Positions 1,570 to 63,524 of a stretch of DNA of 64,000 nucleotides are shown here, piece after piece. Below the pieces are notes generated by a model. The model was not told the DNA's origin and made no database searches. It saw only the letters and a program-made list of their open reading frames with translations. The stretch is from UHGV virus genome UHGV-0332176, one strand, 5' to 3'. Numbering within the stretch: the first letter of the stretch is position 1; the number at the start of each line of letters is the position of its first letter. The translations under genes were made by a program, and so were the position numbers. The DNA comes from a virus.

Positions 1570-1574
1570 TTTTT

Positions 1575-1957: not shown

Positions 1958-1973
1958 AATTAAATAATTTTGA

Positions 1974-2045
1974 CAATAGTGATATAAAGAATTACATAGA
2001 TAACTGATTATTATCTGCCAGAAAATATTTCTTTATTATTATTCT
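1974..2045 (+). ncRNA. repeat module C, variant
   Basis: CAATAGTGAT box, TACATAG box, stem aaagaat/attcttt. Confidence 0.35.
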
Positions 2046-2065
2046 TTGTCATATAAAAAATTAGC

Positions 2066-2200: not shown

Positions 2201-2217
2201 TTAATAAATTTTTTGGT

Positions 2218-2330: not shown

Positions 2331-2343
2331 TAACATTTTGCAA

Positions 2344-2372
2344 CCCAAGAACATATGTTCTTGGGTTTTTTT
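2344..2372 (+). terminator. rho-independent terminator closing the RNA island
   Basis: cccaagaac-atat-gttcttggg hairpin followed by T7. Confidence 0.6.
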
Positions 2373-2385
2373 ATTAAATAAATTC

Positions 2386-2414
2386 TTGACATATTTTATT
2401 TAATATGTTATAAA
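2386..2414 (+). promoter_or_regulatory. sigma70-like promoter upstream of the Ro60 gene
   Basis: TTGACA 2386-2391, 17-nt spacer, TG-n-TATAAA 2406-2414. Confidence 0.5.
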
Positions 2415-2454
2415 CAGGAATGTAAATTAACCTTAACTTATGGAGTGTTGAAAA

Positions 2455-3744
2455 ATGAAAACAAATAAAGCAATTAAAAAAGACCCAGTATATACTTATG
2501 AAGGTGGTAAAGCATCTCATATTTCTGAATTAGAAGAACTTAAAAGAGCAACAATGTCTTGTTTGCTTTGGGAAGATAATTTCTATGAAGATGGAGTATC
2601 TATTGCAGATAGAATTACCTCATTAGTTAAGGCTTGTATAGATAAAGGTCATTATGATGATGTTATTGATATTTTAAAGAAAGTTAAATTTGATATGAAA
2701 ATTCGTCATTGTCCTTTATGGATGATTGTTGCAATTTATAAAGCTGGTAAAACAATTTCTAAAGATGTTATTGCATCTATCTTAACAAGACCTGATGATA
2801 TGGGTGAATTGCTATCTTTATATAGAAAAGATAATGAAAAATCTCCTATTCCAAATGCTATTAAGAAAGGTATGGCTATTGCATTACAAAAATTTGATGA
2901 ATATCAATTAGCAAAATGGAATCGTAATGCAAATTATAAATTAGTTGATATTGTTAATATTTGCCATCCAAAGGTAACTGAAGCTATTGATAAATTAGTT
3001 AAAGGTACTTTAGAAACTCCTAAAACTTGGGAAGTTTTACTTTCAGCAGCAGGTTCAGATAAAGAAAAGAAAAAAGATGCTTGGAATGAATTAATTGAAT
3101 CTAATAAATTACCAGATATGGCTTTATTAAAGAATATTCGTGGTATGCTAGAAAGCGGTGTATCAAAAACTGTTATTGTTGATAGAATTAATATGATTAA
3201 AAGTGGTCGTTTACTACCAATTGATTATATTAGAGCTGCAGAAAATAATCCATCTTTAGAAAATGAAATTGAAAAGAAATTTCTAAATTGCTTTGAAAAA
3301 CCATCATTATACGGTAAAACTGCAATTCTTGTAGATGTTTCAGGTTCAATGGATGGTGAACGCTTAAAATATGCAAATGCATTGGCAATGATTGGACGTG
3401 AAATGTGCTCAGAAGTTGATATATATTCATTCTCTGATTATGTTAAATTTGTACCAAATCGTAGAGGTTTTGCATTAGCAGAAGCTATTGATAAATCTCA
3501 AACTCATTGGGGAACTAATATGTGGGATGCTATTACTGAAGTTGAAAAAGGACGTTATGATAGAATTATTGTTGTAACTGATGAACAAACTATGGGTAGT
3601 CCTCATAATGCTAAAATTAAAAATGCATATATGATTAATGTGGCATCTTATTCAAAAGGTGTTGGATATAACAATGGTTATAAACACATTAATGGTTTTT
3701 CAGATAAAGTATTCAATTACATTTCTGAAATTGAAAATGTATAA
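2455..3744 (+). CDS. Ro60/Rsr-like protein with TROVE-like N-terminal region and C-terminal vWA domain (MIDAS DVSGSM)
   Basis: 429 aa. vWA motif ILVDVSGSMDG plus later SFSD / TDEQ elements. The alpha-helical repeat-like N-terminal two-thirds is consistent with TROVE. It follows the tRNA-like RNA module array. Confidence 0.6.
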   Translation: MKTNKAIKKDPVYTYEGGKASHISELEELKRATMSCLLWEDNFYEDGVSIADRITSLVKACIDKGHYDDVIDILKKVKFDMKIRHCPLWMIVAIYKAGKTISKDVIASILTRPDDMGELLSLYRKDNEKSPIPNAIKKGMAIALQKFDEYQLAKWNRNANYKLVDIVNICHPKVTEAIDKLVKGTLETPKTWEVLLSAAGSDKEKKKDAWNELIESNKLPDMALLKNIRGMLESGVSKTVIVDRINMIKSGRLLPIDYIRAAENNPSLENEIEKKFLNCFEKPSLYGKTAILVDVSGSMDGERLKYANALAMIGREMCSEVDIYSFSDYVKFVPNRRGFALAEAIDKSQTHWGTNMWDAITEVEKGRYDRIIVVTDEQTMGSPHNAKIKNAYMINVASYSKGVGYNNGYKHINGFSDKVFNYISEIENV

Positions 3745-4068
3745 ATATTATTAACAAACCCGATAGGCTTCTTATTTAATTGAGTAGTATGGGTATATTA
3801 GATGACTTAATGCTCACTCCCCTCTGCTACTCTTTAAATTAAATATAGCACAATTATCTTTCTGGAATTGACCAGATAAGTTTATTAAAATTCCTAGGTT
3901 AAATTAATAAATGGGTAGATTTATAAAATTATCCTAAACACGCTCTGATACTTTAATAGTATTAACGCTTATTATATGAGATTACATATAACAATTATAA
4001 TTTCAGCTGTTCAGTTATAATTGGGATATTGGATTTAATCAATTTAACAAGAGAGATTAATTTCTTTC

Positions 4069-4320
4069 TTGTTAAATTATTTTTGTATAAAAGGAAATAA
4101 AATGTTAAATTTAAAAAGTATTTTAAATGATAATATGAGAGTAAAATTTGATTTTTATCGTGATGGTGCTTTATGGTATTCAACAATGAATGGATTTCAA
4201 TTTCCTGTTTCCGTAAAAACATTAGCTGGTACAACAATTTTAAAAGCTAATGATAAAGCATCAGCATTTAGTTATTATATTAAAAAATATTATAATGAAT
4301 TAAATAAAGATAAGGAATAA
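4069..4320 (+). CDS. hypothetical protein
   Basis: ORF with an upstream AAGGAAA ribosome-binding site. Confidence 0.4.
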   Translation: MLNYFCIKGNKMLNLKSILNDNMRVKFDFYRDGALWYSTMNGFQFPVSVKTLAGTTILKANDKASAFSYYIKKYYNELNKDKE

Positions 4321-4325
4321 TTTAG

Positions 4326-4742
4326 ATGAGATTACAATTTTATGTTCAAACAAAAGAAATATCAAAAAATAATCAATTATATGGTGTTATGACAATGATT
4401 GATGATAAGCCATTTGATTATTTGATTGGTAATATGGAAGGTGATAAAGAATATGTTATTGATAAAGTATCTAAAAATATTTTAATTAAAAATAAAACTG
4501 TTTTAAAAAATAATTATTATTCTTTTAAATATGATAATTTAGATATAACGAAAAAAATGTTATATAAATTTCATACTGAAGATTTTTATAAACAGTATTC
4601 AAAAGAACAACAAACATCATTAGATGCATTACCAGCTATTTTTCTTTCTGATTTGACTAAATTATCTAACTTAACAAAACGAATGAATAATTACGAACAA
4701 TTATTACAAAATAAATTTTATAATTCAAAAAATCGCATTTAA
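4326..4742 (+). CDS. hypothetical protein
   Basis: ORF followed by the terminator at 4729-4755. Confidence 0.45.
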   Translation: MRLQFYVQTKEISKNNQLYGVMTMIDDKPFDYLIGNMEGDKEYVIDKVSKNILIKNKTVLKNNYYSFKYDNLDITKKMLYKFHTEDFYKQYSKEQQTSLDALPAIFLSDLTKLSNLTKRMNNYEQLLQNKFYNSKNRI

Positions 4743-4755
4743 TGCGATTTTTTTG
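4729..4755 (+). terminator. rho-independent terminator
   Basis: aaatcgcatt/aatgcgattt hairpin plus T-run, immediately before the promoter at 4756. Confidence 0.55.
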
Positions 4756-4783
4756 TTGACAAGTATTTTTATTATGTTATATT
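4756..4783 (+). promoter_or_regulatory. sigma70-like promoter
   Basis: TTGACA 4756-4761, TG at 4775-4776, TATATT 4778-4783. Confidence 0.5.
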
Positions 4784-4889
4784 AATATCATCTTAAATGT
4801 TTTGGAGAAAAATAATGGTATATCTTTTCATTTTTTGTATTTTATATTTTATTATTTTTAATGATTCAATTAATTAATGGAGAAAAAAT

Positions 4890-5129
4890 ATGAAATGGTA
4901 CACACAAGCAGATATGCCTTATGGTAAAGAACCGATTGTTGTAAAAACTGTTGATAAACAAATTTATTTAGGAAATCATCAACATATTCATAATTCTAAT
5001 CTTAAACATACTTTTAAGAATGAAGAACAATGGGTATTAACAACTAATCAACAAAAAATTGAATGGTCAAAAATTAAAGAATGGCATTATGTTCGAAAAA
5101 TTGTTGATGTAATTGAAAGGAAATTTTAA
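4890..5129 (+). CDS. hypothetical protein
   Basis: ORF with GGAGAAAA ribosome-binding site. Confidence 0.45.
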   Translation: MKWYTQADMPYGKEPIVVKTVDKQIYLGNHQHIHNSNLKHTFKNEEQWVLTTNQQKIEWSKIKEWHYVRKIVDVIERKF

Positions 5130-5399
5130 ATGAAAAATTATTTGATAATGGTTTATAATTTTAGTCAATGGATGTGGGTTTATGATTTCCAAAATAAAAA
5201 ATGGAATAAATTTAATTGGGGTAATAATATTTCTCCTAAGCAATTTCTTGAAATTGCTGAAAAATATAATATGTTTTATTTTTCAGCTAAAGATGTAGAA
5301 GAATCATATTCTAAATTTGATAAAGATGAAATAGAATTTATGGGTTTTGATGACCCAAACTGGAAAGAAAAAGTGAGGATTATAAGTTATGTTGGCTAA
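5130..5399 (+). CDS. hypothetical protein
   Basis: ORF; GGAAA site upstream. Confidence 0.45.
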   Translation: MKNYLIMVYNFSQWMWVYDFQNKKWNKFNWGNNISPKQFLEIAEKYNMFYFSAKDVEESYSKFDKDEIEFMGFDDPNWKEKVRIISYVG

Positions 5400-5733
5400 A
5401 AAGAAAAATATTTTTAAAAAGATATTGTATTTTATTATAATCGTTGGTACTCTTATTTTAGGATTATCTATTAGTGATGCAAATGCTAAATATGTTATTG
5501 CTTCTCAATATTCTTTTGATACAGACACATTTGCACAAATTTTAGAGATATGTGAAATGAAAGGTTGTCAACTTAAAGGTAATTTGGTTTATAATTCTTA
5601 TGGAAAATATTTACAAGTATTAATGGATTGTCCATACATATTTGATTATGAATATATAACAGAAAAAATGTTTGAATATTGGTCACACGATATAGAAATT
5701 AAATTGCCACAAGATATATCTAAATTTCTATAA
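5389..5733 (+). CDS. hypothetical protein with N-terminal signal or transmembrane segment
   Basis: Hydrophobic stretch ILYFIIIVGTLILGLSISDANA. Confidence 0.45.
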   Translation: MLAKKKNIFKKILYFIIIVGTLILGLSISDANAKYVIASQYSFDTDTFAQILEICEMKGCQLKGNLVYNSYGKYLQVLMDCPYIFDYEYITEKMFEYWSHDIEIKLPQDISKFL

Positions 5734-5743
5734 ATATGAATAC

Positions 5744-5832
5744 GAATGGTGGATGTAGTCAAGTTGGTCGAAGACGTTAGATTGTGGCTCTAATACATAA
5801 GAAACATCGTGGGTTCAAATCCCACCATTCAC
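5744..5832 (+). tRNA. tRNA, class II with long variable arm; isotype not resolved by hand-folding (anticodon-loop candidate ttGTGgc)
   Basis: Acceptor gaatggt/accattc, T arm gtggg-ttcaaat-cccac, variable arm of about 15 nt. The anticodon stem ttaga/tctaa found by hand is ambiguous. Confidence 0.5.
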
Positions 5833-5925
5833 CCACCTCAATAATGCAATAACCTTTACGAGGTTTGAGGTATAAGTAATTCAATAGTTGGATGAAACTA
5901 ATAATTGCAAAATATTGAAAAATTT

Positions 5926-6002
5926 GGCTCGTTAGGCGAATTGGCATAGCCGTCTGTCTTAGGTACAGAAGTTTGGGGGTTCGAGTCCCTCACGAGCTAC
6001 CA
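5926..6002 (+). tRNA. tRNA with anticodon UAG as hand-folded (a Leu anticodon but class I shape); encoded CCA
   Basis: Acceptor ggctcgt/acgagct, anticodon stem tctgt/acaga with loop ctTAGgt, T arm ggggg-ttcgagt-ccctc, ACCA end. Confidence 0.55.
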
Positions 6003-6006
6003 ATAT

Positions 6007-6083
6007 GGGCAGATGACGGAATTGGTATACGTGCTACACTCAAAATGTAGATTTTGTGAGTTCAAATCTCACTCTGCCTACCA
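6007..6083 (+). tRNA. tRNA with anticodon CAA as hand-folded (class I shape); encoded CCA
   Basis: Acceptor gggcaga/tctgcct, anticodon stem ctaca/tgtag with loop ctCAAaa, T arm gtgag-ttcaaat-ctcac, ACCA end. Confidence 0.55.
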
Positions 6084-6244
6084 AGATAAATTAAAATTGT
6101 GGGGAAAAATGAGAACAGTTTATGAATATATAAAAGAATTTATTCTTCAAATTTGTTGGCTTTTTAAATAATTTTGTGGAGAAATAATATGTGCAAAGAG
6201 GAAAATGACATCAAGTAAGTTAATAACTTATAGGAGATGTCAAA

Positions 6245-6556
6245 ATGACAAAAGGAAAAGATGTTCGCATCTATAAATCTTACAAAAAAATAGTTCGCCG
6301 TTATAATCGTGATTCAGGTTATATTGAATTTTACGAAGAAGAAGACCGTTGGGATTTCCCTTTCATTCGTAGAAAAAATGGATATGCTAAACTCAAAAAA
6401 AATAATGTTACTTGTAAAGAATTTGGAGTTAAAGGTGTTCCTAATGAAGATGTTAGCAAATATGACCCTTATAATGATGACCGTGCCAGAGCTTATGCTG
6501 AAGCTAAGAGCTGGAAAAGAAACTCTAAAAGAAAGCATCAATGGAAGGAATTGTAA
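6245..6556 (+). CDS. hypothetical basic protein
   Basis: ORF with GGAG ribosome-binding site; K/R-rich. Confidence 0.5.
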   Translation: MTKGKDVRIYKSYKKIVRRYNRDSGYIEFYEEEDRWDFPFIRRKNGYAKLKKNNVTCKEFGVKGVPNEDVSKYDPYNDDRARAYAEAKSWKRNSKRKHQWKEL

Positions 6557-38034: not shown

Positions 38035-38559
38035 ATGAATGATATTAGTAAAATTAAGAGTAATAGAATTGATGATGGAATAAAACCTGGTGATTTATGT
38101 TATTCATTAAGAACAGAAAAAGAAGGATGGTTATTATGTGATGGAACAAGTTATTCAACAACTGATTATCCTGATTTATTTACTGTAATTGGTTATACAT
38201 TTGGTGGAAGTAATTCTCAATTTAATGTGCCTAATTGTTCTGGTAAATTTTTACAAATGGATACATCTAAAACCATAGGACAAAATATTGAAGCTGGTCT
38301 TCCAAATATTGATATGAGTGCATCATTTTATTTAATAGAAGCTCACGGTAGATTTATTGGCTTATCTAATAATACAGGTTCAGTATATGGTGAAGATGCA
38401 GGTGCAATAGAAAATGCTAATGGTGGTGGTGATGTTGGCAGTAATGCTCCAAGAAAAATTCATATAAATGGTAATTTAAATTCATATAATACAATTTATG
38501 GTAATTCAAACACAGTACAACCACCAGCTATAATTGTTAACTATTTTATCAAATATTAA
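38035..38559 (+). CDS. phage tail-collar domain protein
   Basis: LCDGTSYSTTDYPDLFTVIGYTFGG collar signature. About 120 nt are near-identical to 45821-46336. Confidence 0.65.
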   Translation: MNDISKIKSNRIDDGIKPGDLCYSLRTEKEGWLLCDGTSYSTTDYPDLFTVIGYTFGGSNSQFNVPNCSGKFLQMDTSKTIGQNIEAGLPNIDMSASFYLIEAHGRFIGLSNNTGSVYGEDAGAIENANGGGDVGSNAPRKIHINGNLNSYNTIYGNSNTVQPPAIIVNYFIKY

Positions 38560-42950: not shown

Positions 42951-45707
42951 TTAATAACCTTTCGCTATCCAATTAACTGGGTCTGTAATATTTGTATCAA
43001 TAGTAAAACCCGTTTTATCAAAAGTCAAAATTTTTACACCATTTGCCATTACATATAAAGTTTTATTTATAAATGCTTCTGGAAAAGTAATAACTCCTGA
43101 AACTGGTGTAGAAGTTCCCCATTGTTCAATAATTTTTGTTGCAAATTTATTTTCATCTTCTACCCAATTTTCAATTTTATTAGAATATAAAATACCACCA
43201 AAGCCACCACTTTGAGCAATTGTATTTAAATCTTGAGTTGGGTAATTATCATATAAATGCCATTCATTATTACTTATAAATGACCCAATTTTTGCATATT
43301 TTGTATAACCAGATGGTAATACAGGTATTTCTTTTGTATCTGTACCAATATCTACAATACTACCATCATCATTACCAATTACAAATACATTAAATTTAGT
43401 ATTACGTTTCATACTATTTGAAAAAGTTGCTACAATATCAATTTCATTTGCACCAACAGCAATACCATATGAATTTTTAATTGTAATACCAATTGTTTTA
43501 TCTATTTGTGGAGTTGGAATTTCTACGTGTGAATGACCATAATCTTCATTTAATGCAGTAAATGAAGCTACAACATTACTTGGTTCACGAACCCAAATAT
43601 CAATATCTTTTGAACGATTTTCTAAACCTGAACCTTGATTATAAAAATCAATTGCTGTAACTCTTAATGGATATATTGCAGTATAATACCAAGTTGCTGA
43701 TGTAACATCAGTTAACCAACCATTACCTGTTTGTTTTAATCCATCCATTGCTCTATAACCTTCACGGTCAGTTTGTGCAGATGAAGTTATAACAGTACCT
43801 AATGGTTGAGTATTACTTGTCATTACTGGTTGTAACCAAGTTTCTTGTTCATCTTCTAATGAACTACCATTATTATTTCCTGATGTAAAAGGTTTATTAG
43901 GATTCTTAGTAATAATAGAACTAATTTCTAATAAAACTGTACCTGTTGAATCCATAATTGAACCTGGTTGAATAATAATTGTATCATTAGCTTCAATTTG
44001 ATATTCAGGATATGGTTGAGATATTGTACCATAAGTAATTGATGAAGTAAAACCATTTTGTGTATTTCTTAATTTAATATCACCTGCTAAAGTTTTTGTA
44101 TCAACTAAATTAAAATCTGATGCATCTTCATTAACTTGTGGAATTTTACCAGCATTATTAGTAAATGTTGTTAAAGATTTAATATTTAAATCTTCTTTTA
44201 AAGTATCTTTAGTAATTAACTCATAACCACTTTCATCTTGTTTTACTCTTAAATATTCTAATGAATGTGATGTTGGTCTTGGTAATTCTGTATTTATTAA
44301 AGTCATATTACCAAAAATTGTTACTTCAACTCGTGCTCCGCTTTCAATATTATCAGTAAATGTAATAATTGTTCCTGTTGTATCAATATTATAATTATCA
44401 GATTGAATTAAAGTATTACCAATATTAATCATTAATGAATTTTTATCATTAACTGAAACTGGTAATGTAATAGTATTTGTTTCATTAACTATATCAAAGA
44501 AATAATTTAATTTATTATAACCTGCTAAGAGTTGCCATTTTGAATTATCAAAAGGTTCGGAAGCAATATTATCTTCAAGACAAATATACATTGCATTATC
44601 ATAAATACAAACATTTCCTTTTGCAAATGATAATCCGACTTGCCATTGTATAATATTAGCTCTTTCATCATATGTATGCAATACCATATTTCCCATAGAT
44701 AAAACTTCAATTATTACACCAGCTGGAATTGGTTTAATAAAAGTAATTGTTTTATGGTCAGGTTCTAATGTATAATTTTGAGATTGTTGTAAAATGCCCC
44801 CAGCATTAATAATTACAACTTCTTTATTAGGAATTTCATCGGTTAAAGTAATTGAAGTTGTTTCTTCAGTTGCATTATAAAAAAATTCTCTTGCTGCTGA
44901 AAAACCTGCTAAAATTTTCCATTTACTTTCATCAAATCCAACATCAGATGTATGGTCTTCAATACATTCAAATAATGCATTTTCATAAATAACAACCGTT
45001 CCTTGTGAATATTCAGTATTTGGTGTCCAGTCAACTAATGTTGCATCATTTGTACCAATAATTGTAAAATTAGGATAATCACCAGTAATAGCAATATTTT
45101 TACCAGGATTTAATGAAATAATTTGGTCAGGTTTAGTATTTGTAACAATATTATCACGAGAAATTGCAATACCATCACCAGCTGTATAACTATTATTACT
45201 TGCTGAAATTAACACATTGTTTGAATCAGGAGAATATTCAACAGTAATATTTTGATTACCTGGCTTAATATTTTGTTGAACTAAATATTTTGAACTATCA
45301 GGAAAATTAACTTTAAGAGAAACAGTATTATCAGTTTCACTAGGTGTTACTGTAATAGAATCATCAGTCGCTTTAATATCTTCTTTTGTTAAAAAATCTT
45401 CTACTGGATGGTCAGTTGTTGAAATTGTAACTTTATTAGTATCTGGGTCAGTAGTTACAGTAATATTTGCACCTGCAACAATATCTTCAGATTTCAAATT
45501 ATCTTTTGTTAAATCTTCAACATCTTCAGCTGTTAAGTGAATTGATTTATTATCAATGTGTTCTTGAACAGTTTTTTCTGTTTCAGTTGTTGTTCCAGTA
45601 ACATCTTCAACAATAGTTGCTAAAGTTTCTGGATTAATTTTTTGATAATCATCACCATTTTTAACAACTAATTCAGCAATTGTTTTATTATCTAAAATAC
45701 TAACCAT
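42951..45707 (-). CDS. large tail fibre protein with two CBM5/12-like motifs and a C-terminal discoidin-like domain
   Basis: WTPNTEYSQGTVVIYENALFECIEDHTSDVGFDESKW and WQVGLSFAKGNVCIYDNAMYICLEDNIASEPFDNSKWQ. C-terminal REGYRAMDGLKQTGNGWLTDVTSATWYYTAIYPLRVTAIDFYN. Confidence 0.7.
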   Translation of the reverse strand: MVSILDNKTIAELVVKNGDDYQKINPETLATIVEDVTGTTTETEKTVQEHIDNKSIHLTAEDVEDLTKDNLKSEDIVAGANITVTTDPDTNKVTISTTDHPVEDFLTKEDIKATDDSITVTPSETDNTVSLKVNFPDSSKYLVQQNIKPGNQNITVEYSPDSNNVLISASNNSYTAGDGIAISRDNIVTNTKPDQIISLNPGKNIAITGDYPNFTIIGTNDATLVDWTPNTEYSQGTVVIYENALFECIEDHTSDVGFDESKWKILAGFSAAREFFYNATEETTSITLTDEIPNKEVVIINAGGILQQSQNYTLEPDHKTITFIKPIPAGVIIEVLSMGNMVLHTYDERANIIQWQVGLSFAKGNVCIYDNAMYICLEDNIASEPFDNSKWQLLAGYNKLNYFFDIVNETNTITLPVSVNDKNSLMINIGNTLIQSDNYNIDTTGTIITFTDNIESGARVEVTIFGNMTLINTELPRPTSHSLEYLRVKQDESGYELITKDTLKEDLNIKSLTTFTNNAGKIPQVNEDASDFNLVDTKTLAGDIKLRNTQNGFTSSITYGTISQPYPEYQIEANDTIIIQPGSIMDSTGTVLLEISSIITKNPNKPFTSGNNNGSSLEDEQETWLQPVMTSNTQPLGTVITSSAQTDREGYRAMDGLKQTGNGWLTDVTSATWYYTAIYPLRVTAIDFYNQGSGLENRSKDIDIWVREPSNVVASFTALNEDYGHSHVEIPTPQIDKTIGITIKNSYGIAVGANEIDIVATFSNSMKRNTKFNVFVIGNDDGSIVDIGTDTKEIPVLPSGYTKYAKIGSFISNNEWHLYDNYPTQDLNTIAQSGGFGGILYSNKIENWVEDENKFATKIIEQWGTSTPVSGVITFPEAFINKTLYVMANGVKILTFDKTGFTIDTNITDPVNWIAKGY

Positions 45708-45768
45708 TTAATAATTCCTCTTGTAAATCTATAAAAGTATTTATTCACAGTTTGAAGTATTAAAAAGG

Positions 45769-45797
45769 TTTGAAGTTATTTATTAAATAACTTCAAA
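45769..45797. promoter_or_regulatory. 12-bp perfect palindrome tttgaagttatt-tatt-aaataacttcaaa with the same TTATTTATTAAATAA core, in a divergent promoter region
   Basis: Seen directly; preceded by a direct repeat gtttgaagt x2. Confidence 0.45.
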
Positions 45798-45820
45798 GGA
45801 TAAAATTTAAGGATTTAATA

Positions 45821-46336
45821 ATGGCATTATATCTCGGAAGTAATGAAGTTTCTCAAAAAGTTTTATTATTAGGTGGAAATAAAAGTGATATAGAAGTTGG
45901 TGATTTATGTTATTCATTAAGAACAGAAAAAGAAGGATGGTTATTATGTGATGGAGCAAGTTATTCAACAACTGATTATCCTGACTTATTTGCTGTAATT
46001 GGTTATACTTTTGGTGGTTCAGAAAATAATTTTAACGTTCCAAATTATAAAGGTAAATTTCTTCAAATGATTAATGATAATCAAACAATAGGTCAAAATA
46101 TTGAAGCTGGTTTGCCTAATATTACAGGTAATTTTAGTGCATATAATAATGCTGGTATAGATACTGCTAATGGGTCATTTTATTTATCTAATGCACAACA
46201 TATAAACTATGCTGGTAGGTCAGAAAGAGATACATATCTTTGTAATTTTGATGTATCTCGTTCTTCTTCAATATATGGAAAATCAAATACAGTACAACCA
46301 CCTGCTTCTATTGTTAATTATTTTATCAAATATTAG
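45821..46336 (+). CDS. phage tail-collar domain protein, paralogue of 38035-38559
   Basis: LCDGASYSTTDYPDLFAVIGYTFGG; C-terminus NTVQPPASIVNYFIKY nearly identical to 38035. Confidence 0.65.
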   Translation: MALYLGSNEVSQKVLLLGGNKSDIEVGDLCYSLRTEKEGWLLCDGASYSTTDYPDLFAVIGYTFGGSENNFNVPNYKGKFLQMINDNQTIGQNIEAGLPNITGNFSAYNNAGIDTANGSFYLSNAQHINYAGRSERDTYLCNFDVSRSSSIYGKSNTVQPPASIVNYFIKY

Positions 46337-46422
46337 CGACAAATAACGATGACACACAATTTATTAGTAATTTCAATAACTTATTTCATTTTTCGGTTAT
46401 TAAACAAATAATAATGACATAA

Positions 46423-46767
46423 AAACAAAGCTCCCAAATGGGAGCTTAACTTATTTATGTATTATTTCAGTCGCAGTCATTTCTGTTGCAAGGATAACTG
46501 TTTCCCCACTAAACATAAAAGCATTCATCCGTTAGGATTAAGCAGCAATTACATTATAGTTATAGTTAACGTTTTCGTTAGCATTCATTTTATTTTGAAC
46601 CGATATTGGTGGTATCTCGCCAGGTACATTATAGCCATTTTCAATAATGTTCAAAATTCCGTCCGCCCCTAATACATTGATTTTTCATAATATTTTCCTG
46701 GTGGAGCGGCTGGGAGTTAAACCCAGGTCACTATCATTTACTTTGGGATAATTTATCAGCACCATTC
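46423..46767 (-). ncRNA. ssrA: circularly permuted two-piece tmRNA precursor: acceptor piece, then about 29 nt of intervening sequence, then coding piece
   Basis: Minus strand. The acceptor piece ends with T arm ctggg-tttaact-cccag, 3' acceptor ccgctcc and ACCA (to 46699). The coding piece begins with GGGGCGG at 46669, which pairs with ccgctcc through a G3.U70 wobble. Tag ORF 46581-46537 reads GCT AAC GAA AAC GTT AAC TAT AAC TAT AAT GTA ATT GCT GCT TAA (ANENVNYNYNVIAA*). The terminator hairpin gctcccatttgggagc plus T-run ends at 46423. Confidence 0.75.
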
Positions 46768-46774
46768 AAAATTA

Positions 46775-46803
46775 TTTATAAATTATTTTATTTTAATTGT
46801 CAA
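46775..46803 (-). promoter_or_regulatory. sigma70-like promoter for the tmRNA gene
   Basis: On the minus strand: TTGACA (plus coordinates 46803-46798), 17-nt spacer, TATAAA (46780-46775). Confidence 0.5.
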
Positions 46804-46864
46804 TAAAATAATTTAGGACATAAATACAGTTATAAGCAATTCACAAATTTAATAAAGGATTATA

Positions 46865-47668
46865 ATGATATATTATGTTTATCAAATAACAAATAAAATT
46901 AATAATAAAATTTACATTGGAAAAAGAAAATATAAAGGAGAAAATCCTTTATTAGATTCATATATGGGGTCAGGAAAATTAATTAAAGAAGCAATTAAAA
47001 AATATGGAAAAAATAATTTTCAAAAAAATATTATTCAAAGTTTTGATAATGAAAATGATGCTTTTAAATTAGAAAAAGAACTTGTAACAAAAGAATTCTG
47101 TAACAGAAAAGATACTTATAATATTCACGAAGGTGGTACAGGAAGTTTTTCTCACATTAATAATAAACCAATTGAAAAAAGAGAAAATATTATAGCTGTT
47201 AGAAAATTATTAAATTCAGGAGTAAAATTTGGTGGAAAAAAATATTTTACAGAAGAAACTTATCAAAAAATTAGTAATTTTAATAAAGAACGATGGAAAA
47301 CTTGGAAAGAAAAACCAGAATTAATGCCAGATTTTTATATAAAACCTCGTACAGAAAAATTTAAACAACATTTATCAGAAATTTTTAAAGGTCAAAATAA
47401 TCCTAATTTTGGTAAACATTGGTATATTCATAAAAAAGCTATTAATATTAATGAAAAGAAAATGTTTTTTGATAATGAAATACCACAAGGTTTTATTACA
47501 GTAAAAGAATGGAAAGATTTACATAAAAATAAGAAAAATAAAGCATATGGAAAACATTGGTATAATGATGGTAAACAAAATTATTTTTTATCCCCAGATG
47601 ATGAAAAAATTAAAATATTAAGTAAAGGGCGTATTGGTACTCTTTTTAAAAAAATTGAAAGTAATTAG
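46865..47668 (+). CDS. GIY-YIG homing endonuclease with NUMOD-like repeats
   Basis: IYYVYQITNKINNKIYIGK (GIY..YIG). FTEETYQKISNFNKERW and NPNFGKHWY / AYGKHWY repeats. Confidence 0.7.
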   Translation: MIYYVYQITNKINNKIYIGKRKYKGENPLLDSYMGSGKLIKEAIKKYGKNNFQKNIIQSFDNENDAFKLEKELVTKEFCNRKDTYNIHEGGTGSFSHINNKPIEKRENIIAVRKLLNSGVKFGGKKYFTEETYQKISNFNKERWKTWKEKPELMPDFYIKPRTEKFKQHLSEIFKGQNNPNFGKHWYIHKKAININEKKMFFDNEIPQGFITVKEWKDLHKNKKNKAYGKHWYNDGKQNYFLSPDDEKIKILSKGRIGTLFKKIESN

Positions 47669-47707
47669 AAAAAGATTTATATTAAATTTTAATGGTTCAA
47701 AGTTTAT

Positions 47708-47822
47708 TCGTTTTGCAAGCTGGTGGTAATTGGAATGATTCATCTAACTACGGAGTTGGTTCTCGTAATAGTAACAATTCTCGTGCTAATTTGAACGACA
47801 ATAACTCGGTGCGAGGGCTTGA
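47708..47822 (+). repeat. DGR template repeat (TR)
   Basis: Translates to ...AGGNWNDSSNYGVGSRNSNNSRANLNDNNSVRGL; AAC/AAT-rich. It matches the VR at 49401-49515 (minus strand) except at TR adenines. Confidence 0.85.
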
Positions 47823-47948
47823 TATAATCTCTTTTTTGAGCATTAGCTGAATTTTGAACCTTGTCTTAATAGGCTAAACATCAAAATTGTAAAAATAATA
47901 TTAGTAAAAGAATTTGAAAATATTATTTTTCAATTAGAGTAAAAATAA

Positions 47949-49298
47949 ATGAAAAGAATTAATAATTTATGGGAAGAATTTACTTCACAAGAACATTGGT
48001 TTGAAGCAAGAAAAAGAGCTTTACGAGGTAAAGTTAAAAAATATTGTGTCAAAGCTATTATGAGAAAAGGTGACGAATATTTAGAAAAAATTCGTCAAGA
48101 TGTTATTAATGGTACTTTTGAATTTAAGGGTTATAAAGAACATACTATTTATGAACCTAAAGAACGTAAAATATTTGTAGCAAGAATTGAAGAAAGAATT
48201 TATCATTGGGCATCAATGATGATTACTGAAAGAATTTTTGAACCAACATTTATATTTGATAGCTATTGTTGCCGTAAAAATAAAGGACAACATAAATGTT
48301 CAGATAAATGCAAAGAAATTGTTAAACATAATAATTATTGTTTAAAATTAGATATTTCTAAATTTTATCCAAATATTAATCATAAAATATTAAAAGAGTG
48401 TTTAGCAAGAAAAATTAAAGATATAAGATTTCTCAATGCTTTATACGCAATTATTGATAGTCATAATAAGGATACTGGAAAAGGTATTCCAATTGGTAAT
48501 TATTCTTCTCAAATTTTTGGAAATATTTATATGACTAAATTAGATATGTTTGTTAAGCACACTTTAAAATGCAAACATTATTTAAGATATTGTGATGATT
48601 TTTGTTTATTTTCAAATGATAAAAAGTATTTAAATTGGTGCAAAGAAAAAATTATTGAATTTGTTACTAATGAATTAGATATGAAATTAAGCAAATGTGA
48701 TTTATTTAAAACTAAACAAGGTGTTGATTTTGTTGGATATAGACATTTTCCTCAATATACTTTAGTTAGAAAAAGAACTGCTAAAAAAGTTAAAAAGAGA
48801 ATGTTAAAAATTCAATATAAATTAAAAAATTATGAATTAACTCAAAAAGAATTATTTAGAATGAATGGGCAAGTTGCCAGCTCATATGGTTGGTGTAAAC
48901 ACGCTGATTCTTATAGATTTATGAAAAAATATAAAATTGAAGAATGTTTAAAGGAGATTATAATGAGATATGCAGAATTTAAAAACAAATTACATACAAA
49001 TAAAATGTTATCAATGAAAATTAATGATTTTATTAATAAAGAAATAACAATAACAGGTTGGGAATATTATAAAAAGAATGATAATAATGAAGATGATAAA
49101 AATAAAGAAGCAGTTAAAACTGTTAAAATACATTTAATATATAATGGTGAAGAAAAAATTATTATAACTAAAGCATCGGTTATTATCAGAGATTTAGAAG
49201 AAATTTCACAATTAGAAAAAGAAGAAAATACAAAGATATTTCCCTTTGATGCAACATTAAAGAAAGATACTAAACGAAATTATTTTTATTTTGAATAA
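47949..49298 (+). CDS. diversity-generating retroelement reverse transcriptase
   Basis: RT motifs: EPKERKIFVA (motif 2), LKLDISKFYPNINH (motif A), GIPIGNYSSQIFGNIY (the DGR-specific IGxxxSQ form of motif B), YLRYCDDFCLF (YxDD). It has a C-terminal extension of about 110 aa. Confidence 0.85.
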   Translation: MKRINNLWEEFTSQEHWFEARKRALRGKVKKYCVKAIMRKGDEYLEKIRQDVINGTFEFKGYKEHTIYEPKERKIFVARIEERIYHWASMMITERIFEPTFIFDSYCCRKNKGQHKCSDKCKEIVKHNNYCLKLDISKFYPNINHKILKECLARKIKDIRFLNALYAIIDSHNKDTGKGIPIGNYSSQIFGNIYMTKLDMFVKHTLKCKHYLRYCDDFCLFSNDKKYLNWCKEKIIEFVTNELDMKLSKCDLFKTKQGVDFVGYRHFPQYTLVRKRTAKKVKKRMLKIQYKLKNYELTQKELFRMNGQVASSYGWCKHADSYRFMKKYKIEECLKEIIMRYAEFKNKLHTNKMLSMKINDFINKEITITGWEYYKKNDNNEDDKNKEAVKTVKIHLIYNGEEKIIITKASVIIRDLEEISQLEKEENTKIFPFDATLKKDTKRNYFYFE

Positions 49299-49372: not shown

Positions 49373-49395
49373 GTTTTACTCAAATCCCTTAGCAT
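49373..49395. promoter_or_regulatory. 9-bp stem hairpin ggatttgag-tttta-ctcaaatcc immediately 3' of the VR on the target strand; candidate DGR target-recognition hairpin and terminator. Two more GC-rich hairpins sit at 49309-49333 and 49346-49360.
   Basis: Seen directly. It lies between the convergent RT and target genes. Confidence 0.45.
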
Positions 49396-50455
49396 TAGCA
49401 GCAAGCCCCCGCACCGAGCTACCGTCGCTCAAAGTAGCACGAGAAGCGTTACAATCACGAGAACCAACCCCGCAGATAGATGAACCATCCCAAGTACCAC
49501 CAGCCCGCAAAACGAAACCTTCACCGTAAAAAGAACCTTTACCCATATCAGTATTAATAACAGTCCAACCACTTCCACCAGATGCACCAGTTGAATTTAA
49601 ATATTGCCATAAAGCACCGCAACAATCTTCTATACCATAAACAGAAATCATTCTTCTACCAGCAGTATCTACGTGTCCACCAGTTGTTACTGGGTCAGCA
49701 GCACCAGAAATAGCAGTTCCTTGATTAGAACCAAATGCATATGCAGTAAATTCATTATCATTAGCTAAATGTTTACCAACTGAAAATAAATCTTCTACGT
49801 GATTTTGATAATAACGAGTATCAGTAATTGTTGCACCAAAAACTGATTTGGTATTTAATCCAGTTCCTGATTGTAAATAAATATCACACCATTTATCAAT
49901 TACATCAATATATGCCATTCCATCAACATCAGCAAATCGTGGACGAAATGAGATACAAGATATTGAATTTGGTAATATATCGCCAGCATTATATCCAGAT
50001 AATAAATGTCCAGAAATTGTTCCAACATTAGCACATACAGTATGGAATGAAGATAACCATTGAGTATTAGATGTTGTATATCCTGTTGGAGCATCTGAAT
50101 TTAATGAACAAATTAATTCTTTATCAGAAGTAATATAAATGTAATAAGTTTTTCCAGCTTGTAAAGATGTTCCAGTATCTAAAATAGAAACGGGATTAAT
50201 TTCTTTGGCTTCATAATTTTCATAATTAACTAATTCATTATTAAAAACTAAAGGTATATTACAAGGTTCAAGAATAATTGTTGTTTTATCAAAACAATTA
50301 GTTTTACCTTCTCTAAATAATTGAGTATAAGATTTACCTTTAATTGTATTATCTAATTCTTTAATATGAACAAAACGAAATGTAGGAGCAAATCCGCCTA
50401 ATAATGTTTGTAATCCATATATACGATTAATTTGAACTTTTGAAATATCTATCAT
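49376..50455 (-). CDS. DGR target protein (C-type-lectin-fold variable protein), likely a receptor-binding protein
   Basis: The C-terminus ...GEGFVLRAGGTWDGSSICGVGSRDCNASRATLSDGSSVRGLAANAKGFE* is encoded by the VR. Confidence 0.8.
   Translation of the reverse strand: MIDISKVQINRIYGLQTLLGGFAPTFRFVHIKELDNTIKGKSYTQLFREGKTNCFDKTTIILEPCNIPLVFNNELVNYENYEAKEINPVSILDTGTSLQAGKTYYIYITSDKELICSLNSDAPTGYTTSNTQWLSSFHTVCANVGTISGHLLSGYNAGDILPNSISCISFRPRFADVDGMAYIDVIDKWCDIYLQSGTGLNTKSVFGATITDTRYYQNHVEDLFSVGKHLANDNEFTAYAFGSNQGTAISGAADPVTTGGHVDTAGRRMISVYGIEDCCGALWQYLNSTGASGGSGWTVINTDMGKGSFYGEGFVLRAGGTWDGSSICGVGSRDCNASRATLSDGSSVRGLAANAKGFE
49401..49515 (-). repeat. DGR variable repeat (VR) at the 3' end of the target gene
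   Basis: About 103 nt align with the reverse complement of the TR and mismatch only at TR-adenine positions (about 23 substitutions). The 3' end GGGGGCTTG (VR) versus GAGGGCTTG (TR) corresponds to the IMH region. Confidence 0.85.
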
Positions 50456-53830: not shown

Positions 53831-53906
53831 TGGCACTCCCAAGAGGATTCGAACCCCTAATTTAACGTCCGTAGCGTTATGGTTTTTCCAGTTAGCCTAT
53901 AGGAGC
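53831..53906 (-). tRNA. tRNA-Arg(ACG) with encoded CCA
   Basis: Reverse complement gctccta..taacg-ctACGga-cgtta..agggg-ttcgaat-cctct..tgggagt-g-cca, hand-folded. Confidence 0.65.
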
Positions 53907-63437: not shown

Positions 63438-63524
63438 TGGTGGGCATACCGAGAGTCGAACTCGGATGAGGATACCCCCGACAGATTTTAAGTCTGTTGC
63501 GTCTACCAATTCCGCCATACGCCC
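63438..63524 (-). tRNA. tRNA-Leu(UAA), class II with long variable arm and encoded CCA
   Basis: Reverse complement gggcgta..acaga-ctTAAaa-tctgt..cgggggtatcctcatccg..gag-ttcgact-ctc..tatgccc-a-cca. Confidence 0.65.

What the first reader, a model, noticed from the sequence alone, without database searches (positions are those of the whole stretch)
46423..46803. Phage-encoded circularly permuted two-piece tmRNA with an unusual tag ANENVNYNYNVIAA
On the minus strand a sigma70-like promoter drives a short 'acceptor piece' that ends with a T arm, the 3' acceptor strand ccgctcc, a discriminator A and CCA. About 29 nt later GGGGCGG provides the 5' acceptor strand, pairing with G3.U70, the alanine identity pair conserved in tmRNAs. 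This is followed by a resume-codon ORF GCT AAC GAA AAC GTT AAC TAT AAC TAT AAT GTA ATT GCT GCT TAA, which has the Ala start and AA-stop architecture typical of SsrA tags. Structured, pseudoknot-like sequence and a hairpin terminator follow. The order of pieces is the permuted arrangement known from alpha-proteobacteria and cyanobacteria, not the one-piece form. In a phage this implies manipulation of host trans-translation or ribosome rescue, possibly to keep ribosomes free late in infection. The six-frame track only gives a spurious antisense ORF here.
Basis: partly seen in the sequence, partly recalled or inferred. Interest (0 to 1): 0.85.

Follow-up and report, generated by a model that had tools for sequence, protein, structure and literature searches.

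The report
Two-piece tmRNA in gut jumbo phage
A ~287-kb bacteriophage from the human gut carries its own complete "two-piece" ribosome-rescue RNA (tmRNA), derived from gut Alphaproteobacteria; this is a real gene but a new example of a known kind, and its one unusual feature is that the tRNA-like half was swapped as a block together with a neighbouring homing-endonuclease gene.

Summary
The minus strand of 46803-46420 holds a consensus-like promoter, a 69-nt acceptor piece ending in CCGCUCC-A-CCA, and a 29-nt intervening sequence. The coding piece follows, with GGGGCGG (G3.U70), pseudoknot PK1, the tag ORF ANENVNYNYNVIAA-UAA, a 3' pseudoknot and a terminator. Rfam scores it well above threshold: tmRNA_permuted 87.5 bits against a cut-off of 47, and alpha_tmRNA 77.4 against 50. 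ARAGORN misses it.

Covariation supports the fold. In the tRNA-like domain plus P2, 21 of 31 pairs show compensatory changes. In the 3' pseudoknot, 7 of 9 do.

The context is a 25% GC jumbo phage (contigs of 284-288 kb in human-gut assemblies), among tail-fibre genes and next to a diversity-generating retroelement. The closest bacterial relatives of the RNA are tmRNAs of gut and rumen Alphaproteobacteria, whose tags read ANDN..APVA.AA.

Phage-encoded two-piece tmRNAs are already documented, mostly in marine phages, so this is a new member of a known kind.

One further result: in this phage, 1041 bp (the tRNA-like domain, promoter and a GIY-YIG homing endonuclease) replace 251 bp that carry a different tRNA-like domain in otherwise 99.75%-identical genomes.

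Function in ribosome rescue is inferred, not shown.

The parts
46775..46803 (-). Promoter: -35 TTGACA (46803-46798), 17-nt spacer, -10 TATAAA (46780-46775). The predicted transcription start is about 46768-46765, just before helix P2.
   Evidence: Sequence read. It matches TTGACA-N17-TATAAT with one mismatch (8 such sites in the window against 3.7 expected). The same TTGACA-N17-TATAAA arrangement sits upstream of the tmRNA in L003, L004 and L017.
46699..46767 (-). Acceptor piece, about 69 nt. It holds the 5' strands of P2 (GGUGC 46763-46759; AUUAUCC 46752-46746; AUGAU-A-GU 46737-46730), the T arm (46726-46710, loop UUUAACU), the 3' acceptor strand CCGCUCC (46709-46703), the discriminator A and an encoded CCA.
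   Evidence: Rfam alignments. RNAalifold and pair counts on 24 sequences: 96.2% of cells paired, 21 of 31 pairs with compensatory change, 0 of 500 shuffles as good.
46670..46698 (-). Intervening sequence of 29 nt, predicted to be removed when the precursor is cut into two pieces.
   Evidence: It lies between the CCA and G1. It has no stable fold. The corresponding spacers are 2-123 nt in gut alphaproteobacterial tmRNA genes and 5 or 84-86 nt in related phages.
46623..46669 (-). 5' part of the coding piece. It holds the 5' acceptor strand GGGGCGG (46669-46663, with G3.U70), the D-loop analogue ACGGAAUUUUGAAC, and the 3' strands of P2 (AC-AUUAU 46650-46644; GG..AUAAU 46636-46628; GUACC 46627-46623).
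   Evidence: G3.U70 is present in 24 of 24 aligned sequences. The acceptor stem differs between phage variants with compensation: GGGGCGG/CCGCUCC, GGGGAUG/CAUCUCC and GGGGUUG/CAGCUCC.
46602..46622 (-). Pseudoknot PK1, upstream of the resume codon. Stem 1 is UGG 46622-46620 with CCA 46609-46607. Stem 2 is GAUA 46616-46613 with UAUC 46605-46602.
   Evidence: This region is 90-92% identical over 50 nt to gut alphaproteobacterial tmRNAs. The first pair of stem 1 is U-A here and C-G in L003 and the bacteria, which is a compensatory change. Stem 2 is invariant, so it is not tested by covariation.
46538..46582 (-). Tag reading frame: resume codon GCU (46582-46580), 14 codons encoding ANENVNYNYNVIAA, stop UAA (46540-46538). 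It is preceded by an A-rich stretch and UGA-AU, as in the bacterial relatives.
   Evidence: The Rfam alignment puts GCU AAC GAA AAC on the consensus GCa AAC GAu AAC. Relatives keep a 14-codon frame: ANENVNYNYNMMVA (L004) and ANDNLAYNYNVMAA (L003). Gut Alphaproteobacteria encode ANDN..APVA.AA.
46474..46507 (-). 3' H-type pseudoknot. Stem 1 is GGGG 46507-46504 with CCUU 46493-46490. Stem 2 is CAGUUAU 46500-46494 with AUGACUG 46480-46474. The loop is the conserved GCAACAGAA.
   Evidence: Pair counts on 32 sequences: 99.3% paired, 7 of 9 pairs with compensatory change, 0 of 500 shuffles as good, 34-64% paired when partners are slid.
46420..46447 (-). Intrinsic terminator: AAGCUCCC-AUUU-GGGAGCUU followed by a U run.
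   Evidence: Terminator scan. Variation in the population sits in its loop.
46865..47668 (+). Free-standing GIY-YIG homing endonuclease (267 aa), transcribed divergently from the tmRNA gene.
   Evidence: phrog_314 homing endonuclease, E 5.8e-39. Pfam NUMOD3 passes its cut-off; SegE_GIY-YIG scores 24.4 bits against a cut-off of 25. The protein is 100% identical in the six other genomes that carry the window-type tRNA-like domain, and absent from the three that carry the other type.
46624..47664 (.). Swapped module of 1041 bp: the whole tRNA-like domain including P2, the intervening sequence, the promoter and the endonuclease gene. It replaces 251 bp in an otherwise near-identical genome.
   Evidence: Window against L017: 99.75% identity for 45000-46623 and 96.4% for 47665-49079, with nothing alignable in between. 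The boundaries were read.

Best explanation
This is a functional, phage-encoded two-piece tmRNA (ssrA) gene of the alphaproteobacterial type.

Inferred expression and processing: host RNA polymerase transcribes a precursor of about 350 nt from a near-consensus sigma-70 promoter. Host tRNA-processing enzymes remove the 29-nt intervening sequence, with RNase P cutting at G1 of the coding piece and trimming back to the encoded CCA. This leaves an acceptor piece of about 69 nt paired to a coding piece of about 250 nt through the acceptor stem and helix P2.

Inferred action, from the established tmRNA pathway: host AlaRS charges the RNA with alanine (G3.U70, A73). With host SmpB and EF-Tu it enters ribosomes stalled on broken mRNAs. 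Translation resumes at GCU and adds ANENVNYNYNVIAA, a tag whose hydrophobic-Ala-Ala end resembles the degrons of the likely host lineage. The ribosome is then released at UAA.

Likely benefit: extra ribosome-rescue capacity in an infected cell, where mRNA breakage is heavy or host tmRNA supply fails.

Shown here: the gene's anatomy, its selective maintenance and its descent from gut alphaproteobacterial tmRNA. Not shown: expression, processing, charging and tagging.

The gene in this window is also a chimera. Its tRNA-like domain arrived as one block with a GIY-YIG homing endonuclease and replaced a different tRNA-like domain. The mRNA-like half was kept.
For: - Model scores: Rfam hits are well above the curated cut-offs, and alpha_tmRNA is the best family within its clan.
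- tRNA-like domain and P2: 31 pairs, 96.2% paired, 21 with compensatory changes, and G3.U70 invariant in 24 of 24 sequences.
- 3' pseudoknot: 99.3% paired, 7 of 9 pairs compensatory.
- Conservation across phages: a tmRNA gene sits at the same place in three diverged lineages, upstream of the tail-fibre genes. These are the window type, L004 (flanks 80-88% identical) and L003 (about 70%). All three have a promoter, a 14-codon tag frame and a terminator.
- Selection: between the window and L003 the tmRNA is the best-conserved DNA. Between the window and L004 the mRNA-like half is 92% identical, against 80-88% for the flanks. There are no changes in PK1, the resume region or the 3' pseudoknot.
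- Ancestry: the PK1-plus-tag-start signature matched at least 120 species representatives, almost all gut or rumen Alphaproteobacteria. The alternative tRNA-like domain is 73-77% identical to theirs.
- T loop: UUUAACU also occurs in ordinary phage tRNA genes.
- Phage context and abundance.
Against: - There are no expression, processing, charging or tagging data.
- ARAGORN does not recognise the window's form.
- Its T loop (UUUAACU) and D-loop analogue differ from the alphaproteobacterial consensus (GGCAGUA; AAACAGGAUUGAC). Its tRNA-like domain is only 64-67% identical to bacterial ones.
- The single-sequence fold is no more stable than shuffled sequence (z +0.3).
- No smpB was found in the 64-kb window. 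That test was weak and left the other ~220 kb of the genome unseen.
- One relative's tag ends in VA rather than AA.
- The host is inferred only from tmRNA ancestry. For the marine phage Melnitz, tmRNA ancestry did not match the present host (PMC9004378).
Confidence: 0.8

Rival explanations
1. The RNA is made but acts mainly as a decoy or modifier of host trans-translation. It might titrate SmpB, or attach a tag that host proteases or adaptors read differently. It would not be a plain booster of ribosome rescue.
For: The window's tRNA-like domain is divergent and is missed by ARAGORN. The tag's middle (VNYNYN) differs from APVA in every bacterial relative found. The last four tag residues change fast between phage variants: VIAA, VMAA, MMVA. 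There is a precedent: the mycobacteriophage DS6A tmRNA is little more than a tRNA-like domain, and such a molecule inhibits tmRNA (PMC4131195, PMC11915505).
Against: The whole mRNA-like half is maintained in all variants: PK1, the resume context, the 14-codon frame with stop, and the 3' pseudoknot. A decoy would not need these. The tag ends stay hydrophobic plus Ala, like the bacterial degrons.
Confidence: 0.12
2. It is a passenger: host DNA captured by the phage, or an attachment-site remnant, with no role in infection and in the process of decaying.
For: tmRNA genes are common integration sites, and fragments of them occur in prophages (PMC9004378, PMC4383910). The gene lies in a recombination-prone tail-fibre and DGR region, next to a mobile endonuclease.
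Against: The gene is complete, with its own promoter and terminator. It is kept at the same position in phages whose flanking DNA has diverged to 70-88% identity. Its helices change by compensatory substitutions. No integrase was seen in the neighbourhood, and the phage has T4-like replication genes.
Confidence: 0.05
3. It is a protein-coding region on the plus strand (ORF 46457-46672, 71 aa), and the RNA resemblance is incidental.
For: An ATG-initiated 71-aa ORF exists there.
Against: The ORF is 59 aa in the other allele and absent from L003. The Rfam E-values of 2e-15 and 2.8e-19, together with the covariation, cannot be incidental.
Confidence: 0.01

Closest known systems
Two-piece (circularly permuted) tmRNA of Alphaproteobacteria (Rfam RF01849; Caulobacter model, Keiler, Shapiro and Williams 2000, cited in PMC9004378), specifically that of uncultured gut and rumen Alphaproteobacteria
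   Same: The gene order is the same: acceptor piece, intervening sequence, coding piece. Also shared are the G3.U70 acceptor stem with encoded CCA, the three-part P2 helix, PK1 with GAUACCACC..UAUCGG, the UGA-AU-GCU resume context, a tag starting A-N-D/E-N and ending hydrophobic-A-A, and a 3' pseudoknot with the GCAACAGAA loop.
   Different: It is encoded by a 25% GC phage. It lacks the 5' hairpin of the bacterial acceptor piece. The T loop is UUUAACU rather than GGCAGUA, and the D-loop analogue is altered. The tag has 14 residues rather than 13, with an Asn/Tyr-rich centre. Stem 2 of the 3' pseudoknot is longer and AU-rich. A separate terminator hairpin follows, whereas in most of the bacterial genes stem 2 of the pseudoknot runs straight into a U tract.
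Phage-encoded two-piece tmRNAs of marine and aquatic myophages (OM43 phage Melnitz, Pelagibacter myophages, cyanophages; PMC9004378)
   Same: Each is a complete permuted ssrA of bacterial ancestry carried by a large lytic-type phage, behind an early-type promoter. The same functions have been proposed: keeping the translation machinery running, or tagging proteins.
   Different: The habitat is the human gut rather than the sea; 50 of the 53 two-piece phage tmRNAs counted in that study were marine or aquatic. The bacterial source lineage is different (gut Alphaproteobacteria). No glutamine riboswitch matched in the window. No sequence similarity to any cultured-phage record was detectable. There are two alternative tRNA-like domains, one linked to a homing endonuclease.
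One-piece phage tmRNAs (mycobacteriophage Bxz1 group, Bacillus phage G, huge phages; PMC4131195, PMC7162821)
   Same: A ribosome-rescue RNA carried by large phages alongside many tRNA genes.
   Different: Those are standard, unpermuted genes. Some huge phages also carry smpB, which was not found in this window.
T4 SegB, a GIY-YIG homing endonuclease inside the tRNA gene cluster (PMC2330249; see also PMC13096335)
   Same: A free-standing GIY-YIG endonuclease gene lies beside genes for small stable translation RNAs. In T4, cleavage of the related phage's tRNA region leads to preferred inheritance of the endonuclease gene together with the flanking tRNA genes. That is the pattern seen here for the tRNA-like domain.
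   Different: No cleavage site or activity is known here. The co-inherited sequence is half of a tmRNA gene, not tRNA genes. The Pfam SegE_GIY-YIG match is just under its cut-off (24.4 against 25).

Membership tests
tmRNA, permuted (two-piece) form | Score at or above the curated threshold of the family covariance model | tested here: met
   RF04321 scores 87.5 bits (cut-off 47). RF01849 scores 77.4 bits (cut-off 50).
tmRNA, permuted (two-piece) form | Alanine-type acceptor stem: 7 pairs with G3.U70, discriminator A73, 3' CCA | tested here: met
   GGGGCGG pairs with CCGCUCC, followed by A and CCA. G.U at this position is found in 24 of 24 aligned relatives, and positions 5-6 covary.
tmRNA, permuted (two-piece) form | Circular permutation: the 3' acceptor strand and T arm are encoded upstream of the 5' acceptor strand, separated by an intervening sequence | tested here: met
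   The order on the minus strand is T arm 46726-46710, CCA 46701-46699, 29-nt spacer, then G1 at 46669.
tmRNA, permuted (two-piece) form | T arm, and a long P2 helix joining the two pieces | tested here: met
   Helices 1-5 of alignment A1 are 91-99% paired, and 19 of their 24 pairs show compensatory change. The window's own pairs were listed by hand.
tmRNA, permuted (two-piece) form | Pseudoknot PK1 just upstream of the resume codon | tested here: inconclusive
   The sequence can form UGG/CCA and GAUA/UAUC. One compensatory change (C-G to U-A) is seen in stem 1. Stem 2 is invariant, and my search pattern had fixed it.
tmRNA, permuted (two-piece) form | Short tag reading frame that starts at an Ala resume codon without a start codon and ends in a hydrophobic Ala-rich degron plus stop | tested here: met
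   GCU ... GCU GCU UAA encodes ANENVNYNYNVIAA. The frame aligns with the consensus and is kept in L003 and L004. ARAGORN chooses an upstream GUU in the relatives, which homology does not support.
tmRNA, permuted (two-piece) form | Structured 3' domain (pseudoknot) after the tag | tested here: met
   An H-type pseudoknot at 46507-46474 is 99.3% paired, with 7 of 9 pairs compensatory.
tmRNA, permuted (two-piece) form | Precursor processed into two base-paired RNAs | not testable with these tools
   This needs Northern blotting, RNA-seq or end mapping.
tmRNA, permuted (two-piece) form | Works with SmpB, is charged by AlaRS, and tags nascent chains | not testable with these tools
The rest of the ~287-kb genome was not available.
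Free-standing GIY-YIG homing endonuclease with co-conversion of flanks (T4 Seg type) | GIY-YIG catalytic domain plus a DNA-binding module | tested here: met
   phrog_314, E 5.8e-39. NUMOD3 scores 23.7 bits (cut-off 20.4). SegE_GIY-YIG scores 24.4 bits, just under its cut-off of 25.
Free-standing GIY-YIG homing endonuclease with co-conversion of flanks (T4 Seg type) | Presence/absence polymorphism between close genomes, with a replaced flank | tested here: met
   The endonuclease and the window-type domain occur together in 7 of 7 genomes (window and L005-L010). The other domain occurs without the endonuclease in 3 of 3 (L004, L015, L017). Flanks are 99.75% and 96.4% identical.
Free-standing GIY-YIG homing endonuclease with co-conversion of flanks (T4 Seg type) | Site-specific cleavage of the endonuclease-free allele | not testable with these tools
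   This needs a cleavage assay or a co-infection experiment.

The most novel reading that the evidence does not exclude
The GIY-YIG endonuclease beside the gene targets the other (bacterial-like) allele of the tmRNA tRNA-like domain. It spreads by gene conversion, carrying a cleavage-resistant, phage-evolved tRNA-like domain with it. If so, a tmRNA is being rebuilt from interchangeable modules in natural gut phage populations: a tRNA-like domain plus P2 on one side, and PK1, tag and pseudoknot on the other. A further, more speculative step is that the phage tmRNA serves as a counter-defence. It could rescue ribosomes after host abortive-infection nucleases cut mRNAs or the host's own tmRNA, by analogy with phage tRNAs and SegB in T-even phages (PMC13096335).
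Probability: 0.3. Interest if true: 0.6.

Novelty: new member of a known kind. Interest (0 to 1): 0.35.

Why it matters
The finding extends phage-encoded two-piece tmRNAs from marine phages to an abundant human-gut jumbo phage. The neighbouring reverse-transcriptase protein of this phage is on record in 113 blocks of the assembly collection.

It also gives a host lead for this phage, namely gut Alphaproteobacteria, a poorly known group.

The window's form is missed by ARAGORN, which the phage studies and annotation pipelines cited here use for tmRNA detection. Covariance models are therefore needed to count such genes properly.

The two co-circulating tRNA-like domains on one mRNA-like half are a natural domain-swap experiment. 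They show that the tRNA-like module plus P2 can be exchanged as a unit. They also make it testable whether a homing endonuclease drives that exchange.

Tried and rejected
- ARAGORN on the window found no tmRNA. It does find the other allele in L004 and L017, but with a resume codon that homology contradicts.
- Single-sequence folding of the tRNA-like domain was uninformative: z +0.3, and the acceptor stem came out mis-paired. This is an AT-rich sequence, so I relied on comparative evidence instead.
- BLAST against cultured-phage records found only a 50-nt match, to an unverified 50% GC "Bacteriophage sp." contig. That contig carries a bacterial-type alpha tmRNA scoring 187 bits.
- T4-type late promoter: TATAAATA is present at the -10 position but is not enriched in the window (23 sites against 35 expected). 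I dropped the idea.
- The 84-86-nt intervening sequence of the other allele folds into a cloverleaf-like shape. The z-scores are only -2.2 and -1.2, and no Rfam family matches it. It is left as a note.
- smpB in the window: tblastn gave no credible hit.
- Relatives of the endonuclease in IMG/VR are at most 39% identical over the full-length matches (two short C-terminal fragments reach 41-44%). They say nothing about where the module came from. L003 has a dUTPase-like gene, not an endonuclease, beside its tmRNA.
- A search for more window-type tRNA-like domains using the T-arm pattern returned ordinary phage tRNA genes. It did show that this T loop occurs in real phage tRNAs. None of the window's own tRNAs has it.
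- Contig L020 appeared to carry the window-type domain without the endonuclease. Beyond nt 624 it is unrelated sequence that does not match the window and looks bacterial, at 1.2x coverage, so it is probably an assembly chimera.
- Host clue from replication genes: the clamp loader's best cultured match is Pseudomonas jumbo phage PA5oct at 35% identity. This does not help to assign a host.
- A look-up of the collar protein found only six contigs, all with the endonuclease.
Full report
**1. What is in the sequence**

I read the minus strand of 46950-46300. It contains, in order:
- TTGACA (46803-46798), 17 nt, then TATAAA (46780-46775).
- The strands GGUGC, AUUAUCC and AUGAU-A-GU.
- A T arm: CUGGG-UUUAACU-CCCAG (46726-46710).
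- CCGCUCC, A, CCA (46709-46699).
- A 29-nt spacer (46698-46670).
- GGGGCGG (46669-46663), then a D-loop-like stretch.
- The complementary strands AC-AUUAU, GG..AUAAU and GUACC (to 46623).
- UGGCGAGAUACCACCAAUAUCGG, then an A-rich run and UGA-AU.
- GCU AAC GAA AAC GUU AAC UAU AAC UAU AAU GUA AUU GCU GCU UAA (46582-46538).
- A pseudoknot (46507-46474).
- A hairpin terminator (46447-46428).

The acceptor stem forms seven pairs with G3.U70.

**2. Is it more than chance?**

Rfam 15 reports RF04321 tmRNA_permuted at 87.5 bits (cut-off 47, E 2e-15). It reports RF01849 alpha_tmRNA at 77.4 bits (cut-off 50, E 2.8e-19), covering 46807-46469. Only the best family of a clan is reported, so the alphaproteobacterial model outscored the beta, cyanobacterial and standard tmRNA models. 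ARAGORN finds eight tRNAs in the window but no tmRNA.

**3. Context**

The neighbours are phage genes:
- tail-fibre and tail-collar proteins;
- a GIY-YIG homing endonuclease (46865-47668);
- a reverse transcriptase (47949-49298) with an Mtd-like target gene (49376-50455);
- a clamp loader.

The window is 22-30% GC. The reverse-transcriptase protein is found in 113 blocks of the assembly collection. The contigs that carry it include ones of 284-288 kb from human-gut samples, and related short contigs are labelled human gut metagenome. This is therefore a jumbo phage that is common in the human gut. The clamp loader's nearest cultured relative is Pseudomonas jumbo phage PA5oct, at 35% identity.

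**4. Relatives of the RNA**

Pattern scans of IMG/VR and of metagenome contigs and Rfam gave three kinds of phage relatives.
- (a) Copies 99-100% identical to the window, from the same phage.
- (b) A second allele in the same or a closely related phage (L017, L014, L004, L015). It has a different tRNA-like domain, acceptor stem GGGGUUG/CAGCUCC, T loop GCGAUA or GCAGUA, and an 84-86-nt intervening sequence.
- (c) L003 (also sampled as L013), a 36-kb contig of 32% GC. Its tRNA-like domain resembles the window's (85% identical), its acceptor stem is GGGGAUG/CAUCUCC, its spacer is 5 nt and its tag is ANDNLAYNYNVMAA.

In all three the gene sits just upstream of the long tail-fibre gene. It has a TTGACA-N17-TATAAA promoter and a terminator.

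Almost all are uncultured Alphaproteobacteria from human, mouse, chicken, horse, deer or rumen samples. Examples are Proteobacteria bacterium CAG:495, Azospirillum sp. 51_20 and Candidatus Scatocola. Their tags are ANDNFAPVAVAA, ANDNELAPVALAA and ANDNNVAPVA[MLIV]AA, and their intervening sequences are 2-123 nt long.

**5. Structure tested by comparison**

I aligned four phage variants and 20 bacterial sequences, with the intervening sequence replaced by a linker.
- RNAalifold predicts the acceptor stem, the T arm and a three-part P2 helix: 31 pairs, 21 with compensatory changes.
- Counting those pairs gives 96.2% of cells paired, against 81% in shuffles and 39-48% when partners are slid. The covariation score is 0.51 against 0.23, with 0 of 500 shuffles as good.
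- The 3' pseudoknot (stem 1 GGGG/CCUU, stem 2 CAGUUAU/AUGACUG, loop GCAACAGAA) is 99.3% paired across 32 sequences. Seven of its nine pairs show compensatory change, with 0 of 500 shuffles as good.
- PK1 is compatible with the sequence. Its stem 1 shows one compensatory change: U-A in this phage, C-G in L003 and the bacteria. Its second stem never varies, and my search pattern had fixed it, so PK1 counts as consistent rather than proven.
- MAFFT misplaces a few window and L003 residues in P2. By hand, the window forms AUGAU-A-GU with AC-AUUAU, AUUAUCC with GG(CU)AUAAU, and GGUGC with GUACC. L003 changes A-U to G-C inside the middle helix.

**6. Evidence of selection**
- Between the window and L003, the tmRNA is the strongest DNA match in the region compared.
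- Between the window and L004, the mRNA-like half is 92% identical, against 80-88% for the flanking genes.
- The differences from L004 fall at one synonymous tag position, in the last four tag codons, in the spacer after the stop, and downstream of the pseudoknot (including the terminator). None falls in PK1, the resume context or the 3' pseudoknot.
- The plus-strand ORF over the gene is not conserved.

**7. The tag**

Homology fixes the resume codon at GCU. The upstream context AAAAUGAAUGCU is the same as in a subset of the gut alphaproteobacterial genes, such as L001 and L023. The Rfam alignment places GCU AAC GAA AAC on the consensus. ARAGORN's longer tag for the other allele, starting at GUU, is not supported.

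Compared with the bacterial tags, the phage tags keep A-N-D/E-N at the start and a hydrophobic residue plus Ala(-Ala) at the end. The centre, APVA in the bacteria, is replaced by an Asn/Tyr-rich stretch made of AT-rich codons. So the tag is distinctive, but its constrained ends are ordinary.

**8. The extra finding: a swapped tRNA-like domain**

The window and L017 are 99.75% identical over 45000-46623 and 96.4% identical over 47665-49079. Between those points they do not align at all. The window has 1041 bp where L017 has 251 bp (boundaries).
- The window's block holds the whole tRNA-like domain with both strands of P2, the intervening sequence, the promoter and the endonuclease gene.
- L017's block holds the other tRNA-like domain and its promoter.
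- The left boundary falls exactly at the end of P2. All pairing partners therefore travel together, and the downstream PK1, tag and pseudoknot half is untouched. L017 has the same tag as the window.
- The endonuclease occurs with the window-type domain in 7 of 7 genomes where the region can be seen. It is absent with the other domain in 3 of 3.
- The other domain is the more bacterial-like: 73-77% identical to gut alphaproteobacterial sequences, against 64-67% for the window type.

The pattern matches what T4 SegB does to the tRNA gene region, namely preferred inheritance of the endonuclease gene with its flanks (PMC2330249). Cleavage was not tested, so the endonuclease's causal role is an inference.

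The window-type T loop UUUAACU is unlike the alphaproteobacterial GGCAGUA. It does occur in ordinary phage tRNA genes.

**9. How it most likely works**

The steps follow the established tmRNA-SmpB pathway and are inferred here:
1. transcription by host RNA polymerase;
2. removal of the spacer by host tRNA-processing enzymes;
3. charging with alanine;
4. entry with host SmpB and EF-Tu into stalled ribosomes;
5. tagging and release.

No smpB was seen in the window (a weak test), so dependence on host SmpB is assumed.

The promoter class suggests expression by the host polymerase, which would be early rather than late. Nothing here measures timing.

The main rival is that the RNA modifies or blocks host trans-translation instead of supplementing it. 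That cannot be excluded, but the conserved mRNA-like half argues against a pure decoy.

**10. Comparison with what is known**

tmRNA genes in phages have been known for years: mycobacteriophages and phage G (PMC4131195), and huge phages (PMC7162821). The current tmRNA database lists 79 bacteriophage sequences (PMC11915505).

Two-piece forms in phages are documented too. A survey found 53 two-piece forms among 133 unique phage tmRNAs, and 50 of those 53 came from marine or aquatic phages. It also discussed the same candidate functions (PMC9004378).

This is therefore a new member of a known kind. It is notable for its gut habitat, for being invisible to ARAGORN, and for the endonuclease-linked exchange of its tRNA-like module. 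A literature search on tmRNA, homing endonuclease and phage turned up no description of such an exchange.

**11. Verdict**

Interest is moderate to low (0.35). The most novel reading still open is endonuclease-driven modular exchange of the tRNA-like domain, possibly in a counter-defence role. I give it a probability of about 0.3.

Noticed in passing
window 47707-47821 (template repeat), 47949-49298 (reverse transcriptase, +), 49376-50455 (Mtd-like target, -), variable repeat 49402-49516: A complete diversity-generating retroelement lies right next to the tmRNA gene. The two 115-nt repeats are 84% complementary, and all 18 differences lie at adenines of the template repeat (13 A to G, 3 A to C, 2 A to T). 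The variable repeat is at the 3' end of a tail protein gene with an Mtd second domain. No Avd-like gene was noticed beside it.
   Followed up: partly
L004 5400-5485 and L017 about 1536-1620 (intervening sequence of the other tmRNA allele): The 84-86-nt intervening sequence folds into a cloverleaf-like shape. A GGAGAU/AUCUCC closing stem holds three hairpins, one of them T-arm-like (UUGG-UGCGAUU-CCAA). Support is weak (z -2.2 and -1.2) and no Rfam family matches it. It may be a processing handle.
   Followed up: partly
L001 (MT836065.1, 'Bacteriophage sp.', human faeces) 5817-6168 and L002 (IMGVR_UViG_3300029245_000277) 6198-6549: Two contigs filed as viral are about 50% GC and carry a bacterial-type alpha tmRNA (187 and 200 bits, tag ANDNELAPVALAA). 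They are probably gut alphaproteobacterial DNA, or prophages integrated next to ssrA, rather than phage-encoded tmRNAs.
   Followed up: no
loci L021-L140 (gut alphaproteobacterial tmRNA genes), 3' end: In most of these bacterial genes, the 3' strand of stem 2 of the last pseudoknot (GGCUC or GGCCC) runs straight into a U tract. The pseudoknot stem may therefore double as the transcription terminator. The phage versions have a separate terminator hairpin.
   Followed up: no
window 933-6083 (+), 53831-53906 (-), 63438-63524 (-): There are eight tRNA genes, six of them in a loose cluster at the start of the window. The tRNA-His (5749-5834) is 86 nt long, which is unusually long for that tRNA.
   Followed up: no
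window 38035-38559 and 45821-46336; L005-L010 positions 1-4526: Two paralogous tail-collar genes share segments of 84-87% identity. Genomes with identical reverse transcriptases carry alternative tail-fibre gene sets. The tmRNA therefore sits in a recombining host-range module.
   Followed up: no
L020 (human gut metagenome contig, 2846 nt, coverage 1.2x), beyond position 624: The contig switches from phage sequence, 4 nt into the endonuclease gene, to sequence that does not match the window and looks bacterial (one ORF resembles a multi-pass membrane transporter; this was judged from the translation only). It is probably an assembly chimera. Several other contigs end within 100 nt upstream of the tmRNA, as expected if the two alleles break assemblies at this point.
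   Followed up: partly
window 46545-46552 compared with L004 5262-5273: Four substitutions within 8 nt change the last four tag residues from VIAA to MMVA, while the rest of the mRNA-like half is nearly unchanged. This could be fast evolution of the degron end, or a small recombination patch.
   Followed up: no
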